Below, in pieces: positions 25,086 to 29,919 of a stretch of DNA of 64,000 nucleotides (positions are counted from its first letter, which is position 1; every line of letters starts with the position of its first letter). The notes beneath the pieces are model-generated. The model ran no database searches, was not told the DNA's origin, and saw nothing but the letters and a program-made list of their open reading frames with translations. Source of the DNA: Candidatus Bathyarchaeota archaeon (GTDB lineage Archaea > Thermoproteota > Bathyarchaeia > Bathyarchaeales > Bathycorpusculaceae); the NCBI GenBank assembly GCA_963715865.1, contig OY970280.1, positions 1,216,001 to 1,280,000 on the forward strand, read 5' to 3'. The translations under genes and the position numbers were made by a program.

Positions 25086-26288
25086 TTAGAGGTTTTCGAG
25101 TGGTAATTCAATTGTGAATTTTGTTCCTTTATCCTTTTCACTTTCAAAAGTTATTGAGCCGTGAAGTGTTTCAATAAACCGTTTAACTACAGCTAAGCCT
25201 AGGCCTTGCCCTTTAGCTTTTGTGGTAAATAATGGTGTAAAGAGTTTAGGCTTAATTTCTTCAGGGATGCCCATACCGGTGTCTGATACTTCTATGAGTG
25301 CTTTGTTTTCTTTTTTATTAGCTGTTATTTTTAGCGTACCACCGTTAGGCATAGCTTGCAGGGCGTTATTGATTAAATTTGTTAATGCACGTCTAAGCAA
25401 TGTTGGATCGGTGCGTATTTTTGGAAGAGCCTTAATGTCTATTTTTAGCACTGTTTTTTCTGGAATCCTTACTGTTTTAAAAATGCTAGCAATCAATTTT
25501 ATAAAATCTGTTTCTGAATATTCTGGTTTTAGCGGTCTAGCGTAGTCCTGCAGGTCGGATACTATTTTGCTTATGTAATCTGTTTGTTCTTCAATTATGT
25601 TTATGCTCTCTAACGTTTGCGTTTTATCTTCTAGGTAGGGAGTGTTGGCAATTGCTTCTTTCGCTAAGTATAATTCGCTTACAATTGCTTGCAAGGGATT
25701 GCGTATATCATGTCCAATCATGCCAGCAGTCTGGCCAATGGCGGCTAGGCGGTCTGTATCCTTGCGCTCTGTAACATGCTGAAAAATCCGCCAGCGATAT
25801 GAGTGAAGCTGTAAAGAGCTTAACGGGGCAACAACGTTTGCAAATATTAAGCTGAAAAGCGCTGTAAAAAGCGCTGGCGCCTCAAATGATTTAAAACTTA
25901 GCATAATTATTAGAACTCCACCAATAGTAAAAACTAACGACGGCAATGCTTGGTAAATAAATCGAGTTGGGATAACAAGATAGAAAACAAAAACAGCCAT
26001 GTCAATAATGATTATATGTGGAAGGAAATTTTGAGGGCGTGTGGAATCCACAAGTAATATTCCTACAACAAGGGTAAGCAAATAAATGAACGTTGATGTA
26101 TCATACGAGCGGTAATTTTTAACTTGACGGATATATCTAATCTGGTAAGCGGAATAAAATATTAACCCAAGCCTTAAGGCTGCAAGAGCATAGAATGTTG
26201 ATGATAAGCCAAAAAACATGTAATCGCTAATGGCGAAGAGCGCTACAGTTAACGCAAGGAGTACTATAACCATTCTAGTTTGAGACAC
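25086..26288 (-). CDS. Membrane sensor histidine kinase (orphan in this window)
   Basis: H-box GHDIRNPL, N-box NLINNA, G1 DTGMGI, G2 GQGLGL; N-terminal TM region; start uncertain (frame is open up to 26456). Confidence 0.9.
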   Translation of the reverse strand: MSQTRMVIVLLALTVALFAISDYMFFGLSSTFYALAALRLGLIFYSAYQIRYIRQVKNYRSYDTSTFIYLLTLVVGILLVDSTRPQNFLPHIIIIDMAVFVFYLVIPTRFIYQALPSLVFTIGGVLIIMLSFKSFEAPALFTALFSLIFANVVAPLSSLQLHSYRWRIFQHVTERKDTDRLAAIGQTAGMIGHDIRNPLQAIVSELYLAKEAIANTPYLEDKTQTLESINIIEEQTDYISKIVSDLQDYARPLKPEYSETDFIKLIASIFKTVRIPEKTVLKIDIKALPKIRTDPTLLRRALTNLINNALQAMPNGGTLKITANKKENKALIEVSDTGMGIPEEIKPKLFTPLFTTKAKGQGLGLAVVKRFIETLHGSITFESEKDKGTKFTIELPLENL

Positions 26289-26768
26289 ATCGGAAGCAAG
26301 AAAAAAATCTCTATATTCATCGTTAGTCTCATAAGAAGTTCTCTGAAAAGCACCCTTTATTTTCTTAGTAACTTCTCCTATCGCGTGAGAAATCCAATCT
26401 GTTTTGTTTGTAATATTTTTCGCTCCTTGCTGAATGCCTTCCTTTCCTTTACTATTTTAGGACTGGGTCGAGCGCGCAAAATTACATTGCCCTAAAAATG
26501 TTAAGTTCAAAACAAAAGAGTACATGACTTATTAAGAATTAAACTTTTTTACCAATAACAAAGCAAAGTTTTCTTTTCACTTTTTTGCTTTTACCATTTA
26601 AAATTAAATGTTTACTTATTGTGCTGTATTAGTGATATATGGGTAAGCGTACACTTTCCTTACTAGTTGGTTTTTTAGAGTTTCTATAAATAAAGCCTTA
26701 GTTAAGTTTAAACTCTGCGTTGAATAATAGGTAGAGCACCAATCTGGGAGCGCAGGGGAAAAGGGTTT

Positions 26769-28985
26769 ATGGTTAATTCGCCACCGCATCGTGCACGAGG
26801 CGTAAAAGTACTCAAAGCCGTTTCTTCACCTCTCAGACTACAAATCCTAAATTTACTATTCGATAAAAGCGCTCTATCTTACACTGAATTAATGAACCAA
26901 CTAAAAATGAACCCAAGCAGAGACGCGGGCAGATTTGCCTACCACCTAAAATTCATGCTAAAAGCAGACTTGGTTGAGGCAGATGTTGAAGCAAAAAAAT
27001 ACTACTTAACTGACATGGGCAAAATGGTCCTTGACGTAGCCGACCGCATCGAAAAGAAAGCTGTTAAACCAAGAGGAATGCTTGTCCGCACATCCCATTT
27101 AACACTGGAAGAATTCGACGCAAACAAAATAGCAAATTCACTCATAAAAGAAGCCAAAGTTCCAGCAGAACTAGCACAGAAAGCGGCTAAAGAAGCTGAA
27201 AAACGCCTAATCAAATCAAAAACAAAATACCTCACAGCCTCCCTAATCAGGGAAGTAGTGAATGGCATTTTGGTTGAGAAGGGTTATGAAGATTACCGCC
27301 ATAAACTTACAAGAGTCGGAATGCCCGTACACGAGGTAACCGCTTCATTAGAAGCAAAAGACACAGCCGAAGACTCAGCAGCCATACTTACAAGAGCAGG
27401 CCAAACCGTCCTAGGCGAGTACACGTTGCTTAACATTTTCCCAAGAGACATAGCTGATGCTCACCTCTCAGGAGCTATCCACATTGATGGGTTAGGCACA
27501 TGGATTTTAAAACCAAACGAGGTCATCCATGACCTAAGGTTTTTCTTCCAAAACGGCCTCAAACTTGACAATCCGCTCCAAATTTCAATGGAACCGCCGA
27601 GCAGCTTTGAATCGGCGTTGGCAATTACCTTCAACGTTCTCTTGCATGCCAGCAAAGAAACAAACCGAATGCAAACCTGCAATTACTTCAACGTTTTTCT
27701 CGCTCCCTTTGCAAAAGGCGCTGAAACGGCAAGAACAAAGGAAAACTTACGCTTGTTCATACTAAACTTGAACCAGCATGCTGAAGCTACTTTGGGGCTT
27801 GAGCTTTCAATTCCAAAATTAACCGCGGAAAAAGAAGCCATTGGTCCTCAAGGAAAAATAAATGGCAAGTACGGCGACTTCGCCCAAGAAAGCCAACTGC
27901 TCGCATCACTTATCATTGATGTCTTTACGGAAGAGAGTACCCATAAACCACTGCTAAACCCAAAACTAGTCATAAAAATTAACAATACTGTTTTAGCTGA
28001 CGAAAACGCTAAAGCGGTTCTCCTCAAAGCCCAGCGTCTCGCGGCTGAAGGAGGAACCCCATACTTTGCTAACATGACAAAGAAGGAAGGCGAACAAGTG
28101 GCTTTTTCCGCTTCCGGAGTTAAACTTGCGCCGGACTTAACTGGAGACTGGGAAACCGACACCCTGAGGACAGGTTGTCTTGGTTTTGTAACAATTAATT
28201 TGCCAAGAATTGTTCAAGAGAGTGAGAAGGACAAAAACAAGTTTTTCGATTTGGTAAGGGAACGTTTTGAACTTGCTGCCCGCGCCTTAGGAATAAAAAA
28301 TAATGCTCTCAAGCAATTTGGGAAAAACGTGTTGCCGTTCCTGATGAAAAAAGCCAACGGGGACTTTTATTTCAGGCTAGAAAACTGCTCGCGGATAATT
28401 AATTTGGCTGGTTTCCGAGAAGCCGTGGAGGCTTTCACTGAAAAAGACATTAACTCAGAGGAAAGCCGCAAGTTTGCCGAGGAAATCATTCAGAATATTT
28501 TGGCTTTCAAGCAGAAGGTCGGCAGGAAACATGGAAAACGCTTGTACCCTGTTATACTTAGCAGTTCCGAAGCATCTGAAAGGCTCGCTCAATTGGATAT
28601 TGAGAAATATGGTGTAGCCAAAGTGAAGTTTTCGGGAACAAGAGAAAAGCCCTTTTACTCAACCGCTAAAAGATTCCAAGTTAAAGCTGGCGAAACCCTG
28701 TCTATACCGCCTGAAACGTTAGAGACGGCGCAAAAAATGAAAGGGTTGAACGCCGGCGGAACCTTAGAAATCATAGAGTTGGAAGACGCTGAATTTAAGC
28801 CGGAAGCGCTAATGGATTTGACCAGGCGCTTAATTGAAAATCAATCCTTGGAATTCTTCACTTACAACCGGATAATTAGTTTCTGTGAAAACTGCAAAAA
28901 AAGCTGGTTCGGAACCTTGCATAAATGCCCATCCTGCGGCTCCATGAGCACACTGGCAACGTTTGACAGGTTCGCCTCAACTTGA
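26769..28985 (+). CDS. wHTH (ArsR-like) + ATP-cone + class III ribonucleotide reductase (NrdD)-like core, apparently catalytically dead
   Basis: HTH about aa 10-95; ATP-cone about aa 103-170; NrdD-like IADAHLSGAIHI, TPYFAN, VTINLPRI, CENC..CPSCGS; protein ends RFAST with no RxxGY motif. Confidence 0.85.
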   Translation: MVNSPPHRARGVKVLKAVSSPLRLQILNLLFDKSALSYTELMNQLKMNPSRDAGRFAYHLKFMLKADLVEADVEAKKYYLTDMGKMVLDVADRIEKKAVKPRGMLVRTSHLTLEEFDANKIANSLIKEAKVPAELAQKAAKEAEKRLIKSKTKYLTASLIREVVNGILVEKGYEDYRHKLTRVGMPVHEVTASLEAKDTAEDSAAILTRAGQTVLGEYTLLNIFPRDIADAHLSGAIHIDGLGTWILKPNEVIHDLRFFFQNGLKLDNPLQISMEPPSSFESALAITFNVLLHASKETNRMQTCNYFNVFLAPFAKGAETARTKENLRLFILNLNQHAEATLGLELSIPKLTAEKEAIGPQGKINGKYGDFAQESQLLASLIIDVFTEESTHKPLLNPKLVIKINNTVLADENAKAVLLKAQRLAAEGGTPYFANMTKKEGEQVAFSASGVKLAPDLTGDWETDTLRTGCLGFVTINLPRIVQESEKDKNKFFDLVRERFELAARALGIKNNALKQFGKNVLPFLMKKANGDFYFRLENCSRIINLAGFREAVEAFTEKDINSEESRKFAEEIIQNILAFKQKVGRKHGKRLYPVILSSSEASERLAQLDIEKYGVAKVKFSGTREKPFYSTAKRFQVKAGETLSIPPETLETAQKMKGLNAGGTLEIIELEDAEFKPEALMDLTRRLIENQSLEFFTYNRIISFCENCKKSWFGTLHKCPSCGSMSTLATFDRFAST

Positions 28986-28989
28986 AATC

Positions 28990-29919
<930 letters not shown>

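What the first reader, a model, noticed from the sequence alone, without database searches (positions are those of the whole stretch)
26769..28985. Class III ribonucleotide reductase apparently converted into a DNA-binding pseudoenzyme (wHTH + ATP-cone + dead NrdD)
Seen in sequence: an ArsR-like winged HTH is fused to an ATP-cone and a full-length NrdD-like core with the C-terminal Zn site intact (CENC...CPSC). All radical-chemistry residues appear to be gone. The protein ends TFDRFAST where NrdD has R-x-x-G-Y (the glycyl radical). The finger loop reads FSASGVKL where NrdD has MGCR/MCCR (the thiyl Cys). The second Cys position reads PNEVIHDL instead of xC...DL. No nrdG activase gene is in the window. 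Established: ATP-cones sense ATP/dATP, both in RNRs and in the bacterial repressor NrdR. Inference: a transcription factor that reads NTP/dNTP pools through retained RNR allosteric sites, i.e. an archaeal functional analogue of NrdR built from a whole enzyme. It lies tail-to-tail with pyrB (4 nt apart). I know of no description of such a regulator.
Basis: partly seen in the sequence, partly recalled or inferred. Interest (0 to 1): 0.9.

Follow-up and report, generated by a model that had tools for sequence, protein, structure and literature searches.

The report
Dead anaerobic reductase turned DNA-binding sensor
This archaeal gene encodes a full-length copy of the anaerobic ribonucleotide reductase that has lost its catalytic parts, kept its ATP-sensing domain and gained a DNA-binding domain. 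It is most likely an undescribed nucleotide-sensing regulator of DNA-precursor genes that databases mislabel as an active enzyme.

Summary
ORF 26769-28985 (+) encodes 738 aa: an ArsR-type winged helix, an ATP-cone and an NrdD-fold core. The thiyl Cys, second Cys, glycyl-radical Gly-Tyr, HxHD motif and NxN flap are gone; the Zn Cys4 site is kept.

It is not a pseudogene. dN/dS is 0.08 overall and 0.03 in the HTH and cone. At least 597 species genomes carry a relative.

The genome has a separate intact nrdR-nrdD-nrdG operon, so this protein is not the cell's reductase. It is also not the only ATP-cone regulator here.

New here: in at least 24 sampled Bathyarchaeia genomes from 10 families the dead gene sits directly upstream of a working nrdD. 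In another family and in aerobic Nitrososphaerales it sits upstream of a class I/II RNR. Several families have it but no active NrdD. The tail-to-tail pyrB neighbour is best read as a remnant of an older dead-nrdD -> nrdD <- pyrB cluster.

Best reading (about 0.6): a nucleotide-sensing transcription regulator linked to dNTP supply. Its targets in this genome are unknown. DNA and nucleotide binding are inferred, not shown.

I found no publication on it. This scan had already flagged the family in other genomes.

The parts
26769..28985 (+). Whole gene for the 738-aa wHTH + ATP-cone + dead NrdD protein (P0001)
   Evidence: ORF list and translation; Pfam and NCBIfam; dN/dS 0.078 over 45 ortholog pairs
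26808..27035 (+). ArsR/SmtB-type winged helix-turn-helix (residues 14-89). The recognition helix reads DAGRFAYHLKF.
   Evidence: PF01022 27.1 bits and PF24038 32.1 bits, both above cut-off. The model has the a1-a2-a3-aR-b-b-a5 order. H59 is invariant and G54/F56/Y58/L60 are >=90% conserved in 67 diverse members. dN/dS 0.029.
27075..27326 (+). ATP-cone (residues 103-186), the most conserved module of the family
   Evidence: PF03477 30.0 bits, above the 25.8 cut-off. V106, R107, I121, L125, E128, R161, L168, R182, G184 and P186 are invariant. Canonical cone positions are kept in 88-100% of dead representatives. dN/dS 0.033. It is the same cone type as in neighbouring active archaeal NrdDs.
27396..28961 (+). 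NrdD-fold core (residues 210-731) without catalytic or substrate-binding motifs
   Evidence: PF13597 235 bits; Foldseek to 9d3x, 8p2s, 4coj and 1hk8; column table of lost and kept canonical invariants; dN/dS 0.096
27513..27536 (+). PNEVIHDL: the position of the second active-site Cys (Tm Cys125) is Glu251
   Evidence: Alignments; 0 of 68 dead representatives keep the Cys
28104..28127 (+). FSASGVKL: finger-loop position of M-C-C-R, with no thiyl-radical Cys
   Evidence: Alignments; the Cys is kept in 3% of dead representatives and the following Arg in 0%
28884..28937 (+). Intact Zn site CENC...CPSC (Cys706, 709, 720, 723)
   Evidence: Invariant in the 67-sequence alignment; 87-88% in representatives, the rest being truncated sequences
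28968..28985 (+). R-F-A-S-T-stop: relic of the glycyl-radical motif R-x-x-G-Y (Gly->Ser737, Tyr->Thr738). The protein ends here.
   Evidence: Profile alignment to P. copri and T. maritima NrdD. FDRF[TAN]ST-stop is identical in 15 close orthologs. More distant members keep a longer tail homologous to the radical domain, mostly without the Gly.
26699..26716 (+). TAGTTAAGTTTAAACTCT, the only upstream element conserved before this gene in all orthologs. Probably BRE/TATA; possibly also an autoregulatory site.
   Evidence: Upstream regions of 78 loci and an information profile of 68 anchored sequences. TTTAAAC is also present before distant members. It is not enriched genome-wide (9 found, 9.8 expected).
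28990..29919 (-). pyrB (aspartate carbamoyltransferase catalytic chain), convergent neighbour 4 nt away; context only
   Evidence: TIGR00670 392.6 bits. It lies convergent directly after the gene in 71 of 74 informative loci. In other families an active nrdD lies between the two.

Best explanation
The gene encodes a catalytically dead paralogue of the archaeal, ATP-cone-bearing class III ribonucleotide reductase. It acts as a nucleotide-sensing transcription regulator tied to dNTP supply.

Proposed mechanism (inferred):
- The NrdD-fold core serves as a dimeric scaffold.
- The ATP-cone binds ATP or dATP, as it does in active NrdD and in NrdR. This changes the oligomeric state or the relative position of the two N-terminal ArsR-type winged helices.
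- That in turn switches DNA binding at promoters on or off.

In most Bathyarchaeia the likely main target is the RNR operon immediately downstream. In this genome's family that operon has been lost from the locus and replaced by an nrdR-nrdD-nrdG operon elsewhere. The targets here are therefore unknown; candidates are its own promoter, the new nrd operon and nucleotide-synthesis genes.

Shown: domain architecture, loss of catalytic motifs, purifying selection, phyletic spread and gene neighbourhood.
Inferred: nucleotide binding, DNA binding, direction of regulation and the regulon.
For: Architecture and fold:
- The domains and the NrdD fold are established.
- All radical and substrate motifs are lost across 68 representative clusters, while structural invariants, the Zn site and the cone are kept.

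Selection and evolution:
- Purifying selection is strongest on the HTH (0.029) and cone (0.033), and is also present on the core (0.096).
- The recognition helix is nearly invariant. At least 597 species genomes carry the pattern together with a relative.
- In an ML tree the 67 HTH-bearing members form one clade next to the archaeal cone-bearing NrdDs. They evolve about 2.4 times faster.

Gene neighbourhood:
- The gene lies directly upstream of, and in the same direction as, an active nrdD (RITGY) in at least 24 of 135 carrier genomes from 10 families. In f5 a glutaredoxin-like gene lies between them.
- It lies upstream of a class I/II RNR in at least 5 genomes of family f11, in a Nitrososphaerales contig and in one unnamed metagenome contig.
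- It lies upstream of an NrdD in one further metagenome contig.

Distribution:
- It is present in lineages that have no active NrdD at all (f11, f20, f24, f26, f28, most of f21).
- NrdR is not found in any family except f1 and f18.

Published precedent: ATP-cones switch oligomeric state and DNA binding in NrdR (PMC9110341) and switch activity in NrdD (PMC11226230).
Against: - No DNA-binding or nucleotide-binding data exist.
- I found no operator shared between its own promoter and candidate targets. The one conserved upstream element looks like an ordinary BRE/TATA.
- The conserved promoter module of the neighbouring nrd operons in other families is absent from this genome.
- This genome already has NrdR in front of its only active RNR, so a role in RNR control here is not needed a priori.
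- One of the two N-terminal basic residues of the cone (RK in the neighbouring active enzymes) is RT in this family, so ligand preference may differ.
- About three quarters of carrier genomes do not have it next to an RNR gene.
Confidence: 0.6

Rival explanations
1. A protein-level regulator. The dead subunit pairs with the active NrdD, or sequesters its activase or reductant, to tune reductase activity, as many pseudoenzymes do with their active paralogues. On this reading the winged helix serves protein contacts or localisation rather than gene control.
For: - It derives from, and often neighbours, an active NrdD of the same clade with the same cone type.
- The NrdD fold and the structural invariants of the core are retained.
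- The core is under purifying selection.
Against: - It is present in families where no active NrdD was found (f11, f20, f24, f26, f28, most of f21).
- It is present in aerobic Nitrososphaerales beside class I/II RNR.
- In this genome the only active NrdD is a distant clade (26% identity).
- The HTH recognition helix is the most constrained part of the protein.
Confidence: 0.12
2. A regulator of pyrimidine or purine biosynthesis rather than of RNR. On this reading the conserved pairing with pyrB reflects a functional link.
For: - pyrB is convergent directly after the gene in 71 of 74 informative loci.
- pyrB also closes the cluster in families that keep nrdD in between.
- A 40%-identical member lies among purL/F/E/M, pyrB and pyrI.
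- In this genome another DUF7347-type wHTH protein lies directly upstream of pyrI.
Against: - A tail-to-tail arrangement shares no promoter.
- The adjacency is explained by loss of nrdD from an older three-gene cluster.
- Same-direction adjacency is to RNR genes, not pyr genes.
- No motif is shared with the pyrB upstream region (by inspection).
Confidence: 0.1
3. A DNA-associated factor that is not a classical gene regulator. For example, it could couple dNTP status to replication or repair, or act as a nucleoid protein, binding DNA with little sequence specificity.
For: - The recognition helix is invariant across very distant lineages although no common operator could be found.
- It has been retained for a long time in family f1 after its neighbouring target operon was lost.
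Against: - Recurrent same-direction placement in front of RNR genes of two different classes is the pattern expected of a dedicated local regulator.
- There is one copy per genome in most carriers.
Confidence: 0.1
4. Still an enzyme, with chemistry that needs neither a glycyl nor a thiyl radical.
For: The full-length barrel is retained under purifying selection.
Against: - Within the family the former active-site positions are not conserved to any alternative residue set.
- The substrate triphosphate motif HxHD, the NxN flap and the PAE loop are lost (PMC11226230, PMC4493059).
- The core evolves 2.4 times faster than active relatives.
Confidence: 0.03
5. A decaying pseudogene or an assembly artefact.
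For: None beyond the missing catalytic residues.
Against: - The frame is intact, with the same 738-aa length and the same stop in many independent assemblies.
- dN/dS is 0.078.
- It is found in 135 of 201 sampled Bathyarchaeia genomes.
Confidence: 0.01

Closest known systems
NrdR (TIGR00244), the bacterial RNR-specific repressor
   Same: - A DNA-binding module is joined to an ATP-cone.
- It is encoded next to RNR genes.
- In NrdR, ATP versus dATP in the cone changes oligomeric state and so DNA binding (PMC9110341).
- The family studied here is widespread where NrdR was not found.
   Different: - The DNA-binding module is an ArsR-type winged helix, not an N-terminal Zn ribbon.
- A whole 530-residue dead NrdD barrel follows the cone.
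- No NrdR-box-like operator was identified for it.
- In this genome both proteins exist.
- It is not a member of the NrdR family; it may work like it.
Class III ribonucleotide reductase NrdD, archaeal ATP-cone-bearing clade (for example the genes directly downstream in L105 and L108)
   Same: - Same fold, same Zn Cys4 site and same special cone type (VVRKS..EPFD..APLIRE..RVGLPV).
- 28% identity overall.
- Sister group in the tree.
   Different: - It lacks the glycyl radical Gly-Tyr, the thiyl Cys, the second Cys, HxHD, the NxN flap and the PAE and YTNS motifs.
- It scores below the equivalog cut-off.
- It has an extra N-terminal wHTH.
- In this lineage it is truncated at the radical loop.
ArsR/SmtB family winged-helix regulators (PF01022; e.g. 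HlyU, PDB 3jth/4k2e)
   Same: - The sequence match is above the Pfam cut-off, and the profile matches HlyU at E = 5e-4.
- The helix order is a1-a2-a3-aR-wing-a5.
- It has a YHLK-type recognition helix.
   Different: - There is no metal-site Cys/His motif; residues 1-100 contain no Cys.
- The sensor is an ATP-cone plus a dead enzyme instead of a metal site.
- It scores below the NCBIfam metalloregulator cut-off (31.6 against 55).
Enzyme-derived one-component regulators and pseudoenzyme sensors in general (from my own knowledge, not tested here: BirA, PutA, NadR)
   Same: A DNA-binding domain is fused to an enzyme fold that supplies ligand sensing.
   Different: Those examples keep catalysis. 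Here the enzyme is dead, and the presumed sensor is its allosteric domain.

Membership tests
Active class III RNR (NrdD; PF13597 / TIGR02487) | Sequence and fold homology to the NrdD ten-stranded barrel | tested here: met
   PF13597 235 bits; Foldseek probability 1.0 to 9d3x, 8p2s, 4coj and 1hk8
Active class III RNR (NrdD; PF13597 / TIGR02487) | Score above the curated equivalog cut-off | tested here: not met
   TIGR02487 scores 245.3 against a cut-off of 326.35. All other NrdD equivalogs score far below their cut-offs.
Active class III RNR (NrdD; PF13597 / TIGR02487) | C-terminal glycyl-radical motif R-x-x-G-Y | tested here: not met
   It reads R-F-A-S-T-stop. The Gly is kept in 18% and the Tyr in 3% of 68 dead representatives.
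Active class III RNR (NrdD; PF13597 / TIGR02487) | Thiyl-radical Cys on the finger loop (M-C/G-C-R) and second active-site Cys | tested here: not met
   SGVK and Glu251 occupy these positions. The residues are kept in 3% and 0% of the family.
Active class III RNR (NrdD; PF13597 / TIGR02487) | Substrate triphosphate motif HxHD and NxN flap (PMC11226230, PMC4493059) | tested here: not met
   HxHD reads H-I-D-G. The second His is kept in 4% and the Asp in 16% of the family. The NxN columns are deleted.
Active class III RNR (NrdD; PF13597 / TIGR02487) | Zn(Cys)4 site before the radical domain | tested here: met
   C706, C709, C720 and C723 are invariant in alignment A1
Active class III RNR (NrdD; PF13597 / TIGR02487) | Partner activase NrdG encoded alongside | tested here: not met
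   No NrdG-type hit lies in the window. The only NrdG above the cut-off lies beside the canonical nrdD at G000:C1:353 kb.
ATP-cone (PF03477) | Profile match above the gathering score and conserved cone positions | tested here: met
   30.0 bits against a cut-off of 25.8. The canonical positions F, I, E, A, I, R and V are kept in 88-100% of the family.
ATP-cone (PF03477) | Binds ATP/dATP | not testable with these tools
   R107, Y176/R177 and R182 occupy positions of basic or aromatic nucleotide contacts described for P. copri NrdD (PMC11226230). One of the two N-terminal basic residues is Thr.
ArsR/SmtB winged-helix regulators (PF01022) | Profile match above the gathering score and the a1-a2-a3-aR-b-b-a5 topology | tested here: met
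   HTH_5 scores 27.1 against a cut-off of 22. Model elements are H6-17, H21-33, H38-44, H49-65, E69-72, E77-80 and H82-98.
ArsR/SmtB winged-helix regulators (PF01022) | Metal- or metalloid-sensing site | tested here: not met
   Residues 1-100 contain no Cys. NF033788 scores 31.6 against a cut-off of 55.
ArsR/SmtB winged-helix regulators (PF01022) | Sequence-specific DNA binding as a dimer | not testable with these tools
   No operator was identified.
NrdR (TIGR00244) | [quoted passage not shown] | tested here: not met
   No TIGR00244 hit for P0001. The genome's true NrdR lies at G000:C1:355902-356324 and scores 152.6 bits.

The most novel reading that the evidence does not exclude
This family is the principal regulator of ribonucleotide reduction in Bathyarchaeia and Nitrososphaeria, lineages that mostly lack NrdR. 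On this reading it is a transcription factor made from an entire dead reductase. It would read the ATP/dATP ratio through the cone, and possibly dNTP balance through the relic specificity site, and switch RNR operons of any class accordingly.
Probability: 0.35. Interest if true: 0.9.

Novelty: new variant of a known kind. Interest (0 to 1): 0.8.

Why it matters
- How archaea control ribonucleotide reduction at the gene level is largely unknown, and NrdR is rare in archaea (PMC9110341).
- A large, strongly conserved family that joins a DNA-binding domain to the RNR activity sensor, and that repeatedly sits in front of RNR genes of different classes, is a concrete and testable candidate for that missing regulator.
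- It would be an unusual case of a whole radical enzyme recycled as the sensor of a transcription factor.
- Practically, databases label these proteins 'anaerobic ribonucleoside-triphosphate reductase', even in aerobic ammonia oxidisers and in lineages where no active NrdD was found. That label distorts metabolic reconstructions of oxygen tolerance and dNTP synthesis.

Tried and rejected
- **Complex prediction.** Complex prediction on residues 1-200 in two copies gave no answer (score 0.22, mark 0.42). It is not evidence either way.
- **RNA runs.** For window:26600-29100 no RNA holder was listed.
- **Regulon search with the gene's own conserved upstream element.** TTTAAACTCT occurs 9 times in the genome against 9.8 expected. 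The extended pattern occurs 3 times and is not at nrd or pyr genes. I rejected it as a regulon motif.
- **Search of the own genome for the nrd promoter module of families f4, f5 and f30.** Boxes TGTCAATTT, TACAGAATTTTATAC and CTAAAAAATTAAATA gave no hit above shuffled controls.
- **Box 2 with up to 2 mismatches in five other genomes.** Counts equal the reversed-pattern control. Only exact copies mark the nrd locus, so no regulon emerged.
- **Second copy of that module in G183.** No ORF of 70 aa or more and no Rfam hit lie downstream.
- **PyrI-substitute idea (cone plus Zn site as a stand-in for PyrI).** Dropped, because pyrI is present elsewhere in the genome.
- **Specificity-site mapping from T. 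maritima Gln161/Gln218.** The alignment is ambiguous in that helix and the family is not conserved there. I make no claim.
- **Divergent histidine kinase upstream.** It is kept only in the closest relatives, so I do not treat it as linked.
- **Literature.** Six full-text searches and a targeted read found no description of an HTH-fused dead NrdD. The library lacks most subscription journals, so this is not proof of absence.
Full report
**1. What is there**

ORF 26769-28985 (+) is intact and encodes 738 residues.
- Pfam finds an ArsR-type winged helix on residues 14-89: HTH_5 at 27.1 bits and DUF7347 at 32.1 bits, both above their cut-offs.
- It finds an ATP-cone on residues 105-177 (30.0 bits, cut-off 25.8).
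- It finds an NRDD domain on residues 210-731 (235 bits).
- The curated NrdD equivalog model scores 245, below its cut-off of 326.
- An AlphaFold2 model built on 67 family members is confident (pLDDT 89.2, pTM 0.80). It has a flexible linker at residues 99-102 between the winged helix and the cone.
- Foldseek matches the model to every solved NrdD, from S. thermophilus, P. copri, T. maritima and T4.

**2. The catalytic machinery is gone**

I aligned the protein to the genome's own canonical NrdD, to solved NrdDs and, as a family profile, to P. copri, T. maritima, T4 and S. thermophilus NrdD. The results agree:
- M-C-C-R on the finger loop aligns with S-G-V-K.
- The second Cys (Tm Cys125) aligns with Glu251.
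- R-I-T-G-Y aligns with R-F-A-S-T, after which the protein stops.

I also compared 8 canonical and 68 HTH-bearing representatives, each standing for a 50%-identity cluster. For every canonical invariant I recorded how often the dead family keeps it.

Lost:

| Canonical feature | Kept in dead family |
|---|---|
| Thiyl Cys | 3% |
| Following Arg | 0% |
| Second Cys | 0% |
| Radical Gly | 18% |
| Following Tyr | 3% |
| Second His of HxHD | 4% |
| Asp of HxHD | 16% |
| NxN flap | deleted |
| PAE loop | 6-26% |
| YTNS..H | 1-4% |

HxHD and the NxN flap are the published substrate-triphosphate and flap elements (PMC11226230, PMC4493059).

Kept:
- ATP-cone positions (88-100%).
- The motifs H..G (H 90%, G 100%) and N-L-P-R (N 100%, L 78%, P 93%, R 91%).
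- G486, E489, R543, D548, Y572 and G603 (90-97%).
- The four Zn cysteines.

The active site has therefore decayed, while the scaffold and the activity sensor have not.

**3. It is a real, selected gene of a large family**

- More than 120 clusters at 90% identity share the 738-aa architecture.
- An exhaustive search of 50%-identity representatives finds 322 proteins at E <= 1e-30. About 70 of the near-full-length ones carry the same HTH + cone + dead core.
- A degenerate pattern of the recognition helix, [DE][AST]G[KR]F[AGV]YHL[RK], finds at least 597 relatives in species-representative genomes.
- In a 67-sequence alignment the invariant and near-invariant columns are concentrated in the recognition helix and the cone.
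- Pairwise dN/dS among 15 close orthologs (45 pairs, dS 0.05-1.5) is 0.078 overall. By region it is 0.029 for the HTH, 0.033 for the cone, 0.096 for the core and 0.064 for the Zn/C-terminus. The ending FDRF[TAN]ST-stop is fixed.
- In an ML tree the 67 HTH-bearing rows form one clade. Its support is modest (SH-aLRT 63). It is sister to the archaeal cone-bearing active NrdDs, and the joint node has support 100.
- Mean depth is 2.0 substitutions per site in the dead clade against 0.84 in the active one. This fits one duplication followed by relaxed, then new, constraint.
- The single apparent exception (P0270) was a mis-sorted sequence with a second cone instead of an HTH.

**4. The rest of the genome**

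The 2.35-Mb genome is one contig, 98% complete, and Bathyarchaeia by the names of close homologs.
- It has one further NRDD match. This is a canonical 708-aa NrdD with MCCR and RVVGY.
- That gene is followed by NrdG (TIGR02495, 185.9 bits) and preceded by a true NrdR (TIGR00244, 152.6 bits, above its cut-off).
- No class I/II RNR was found.
- The refutation condition 'no other RNR and this protein is active' therefore fails. The simple picture of an 'archaeal substitute for NrdR' also fails for this genome.

**5. Distribution across the class**

I searched 201 Bathyarchaeia genomes of at least 80% completeness.
- The HTH+cone query hits 135 genomes, and 97 of 126 high-quality ones. It is found in nearly every family except f18 (0/50), f15 (0/4) and f27 (0/1).
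- NrdR above its cut-off is found only in f1, the window's family (28/29), and in f18 (13/50).
- Families f11, f20, f24, f26, f28 and most of f21 have only the dead NRDD match and no active NrdD. They carry class I/II RNR instead.
- The protein therefore cannot be an obligate partner of an active NrdD.

**6. Gene neighbourhood**

Among the 80 closest loci (58-92% identity), pyrB lies convergent directly after the gene in 71 of 74 informative cases. The upstream side varies.

I fetched loci from other families and cross-referenced match coordinates.
- The dead gene is followed, in the same direction, by an active nrdD (RITGY/RVTGY) in at least 24 genomes of 10 families. This includes all sampled f4 and f5 genomes, which belong to the window's own order.
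- In f5 a glutaredoxin/NrdH-like gene lies between the two.
- In several of these loci pyrB lies convergent right after nrdD.
- The likely older layout is therefore dead-nrdD -> (nrdH) -> nrdD <- pyrB.
- The neighbouring active NrdD shares the family's particular cone sequence and is 28% identical overall. The genome's present NrdD is only 26% identical to either. This fits replacement of the old enzyme by an nrdR-nrdD-nrdG operon of different origin.

Other lineages show the same pattern with other RNR classes.
- In at least 5 genomes of f11 the dead gene lies directly upstream of a class I/II RNR.
- The same holds for a Nitrososphaerales member and for one further unnamed metagenome member.
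- Another metagenome member lies upstream of an NrdD.
- A 40%-identical member lies among pur genes, pyrB and pyrI.

**7. Cis elements**

Before the gene itself, one element survives in all lineages: T-N3-TWA-NN-TTTAAAC-T-C-T, about 55-70 nt before the start. An AATA(GG/CC)TA element lies about 17 nt further on.
- This looks like BRE/TATA plus an initiator.
- It is not enriched in the genome.
- I treat it as the core promoter, with autoregulation possible but unproven.

The promoters of the downstream nrd operons in f4, f5 and f30 share a three-box module: TGTCAATTT, TACAGAATTTTATAC and CTAAAAAATTAAATA.
- An exact copy of the middle box marks the nrd locus uniquely in three of the four genomes that carry one. 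In the fourth (G183) the whole module is duplicated.
- This module is a candidate binding region. It is absent from the present genome.
- The targets in this genome are therefore unknown.

**8. Interpretation**

The best-supported reading is a nucleotide-sensing DNA-binding regulator linked to dNTP supply. The proposal is modelled on what ATP-cones do in NrdR (oligomer switching that gates DNA binding, PMC9110341) and in NrdD (PMC11226230). I put this at about 0.6.

Rivals:

| Reading | Confidence | Main point |
|---|---|---|
| Protein-level modulator of RNR | 0.12 | Weakened by lineages without NrdD |
| Pyr/pur regulator | 0.10 | Adjacency explained by synteny history |
| Non-classical DNA-associated factor | 0.10 | - |
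| Altered enzyme | 0.03 | - |
| Pseudogene or artefact | 0.01 | Refuted |

**9. Novelty**

Six full-text searches and a targeted read found nothing on an HTH-fused dead NrdD. Earlier notes of this scan had flagged the same family in other genomes and reached a similar reading. I re-tested those points here.

- The quantitative column table of lost and kept motifs.
- dN/dS by domain.
- The complementary but overlapping distribution with NrdR.
- Presence of the protein in lineages that lack NrdD.
- The tandem layout in at least 24 genomes.
- The explanation of the pyrB neighbour.
- A candidate promoter module.

Noticed in passing
L100:1477-2199 (+) and L100:2273-2737 (+), i.e. G000:C1 about 284.5-285.7 kb, outside the window: A 240-aa protein has a DUF7347/ArsR-type winged helix and an RDD membrane domain. 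It is 36% identical to residues 12-116 of the protein studied. It lies 74 bp upstream of pyrI on the same strand. Both ATCase genes of this genome therefore have a DUF7347-type wHTH gene as neighbour.
   Followed up: partly
L001:4029-4120 (minus strand), upstream of nrdR in the own genome: An 8-bp inverted repeat TGTAGTGT-N17-ACACTACA and the sequence ACACTACATATATAAC resemble bacterial NrdR boxes. They lie just before the true NrdR start. The listed 234-aa ORF overextends the gene by 86 codons.
   Followed up: no
L113-L125, L106, L108, L107 (intergenic region after the dead nrdD): A conserved three-box promoter module (TGTCAATTT / TACAGAATTTTATAC / CTAAAAAATTAAATA) lies before nrdH/nrdD in families f4, f5 and f30, which lack NrdR.
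   Followed up: partly
L126:2500-2700 (minus strand), G183:C3 about 110.9 kb: A near-exact second copy of that whole promoter module has no ORF of 70 aa or more and no Rfam match downstream. It may drive a small or non-coding transcript, or it may be a dead duplicate.
   Followed up: partly
L096:6001-8094 and L096:8279-11200: A Nitrososphaerales (aerobic ammonia oxidiser) member of the dead family is labelled 'anaerobic ribonucleoside-triphosphate reductase' in NCBI. It lies directly upstream of an intein-bearing class I/II RNR.
   Followed up: yes
window 25086-26288 (-): A histidine kinase (HisKA + HATPase_c) is transcribed divergently from the gene across a 480-bp AT-rich spacer. The pairing is kept only in the closest relatives.
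   Followed up: partly
one search list (P0178, P0179, P0192, P0224, P0229, P0241 and others, 1000-1700 aa): Many relatives of 1000-1700 residues match in two to five separate stretches. This suggests intein-bearing NrdDs. I did not examine whether any of them is a dead, HTH-bearing member.
   Followed up: no
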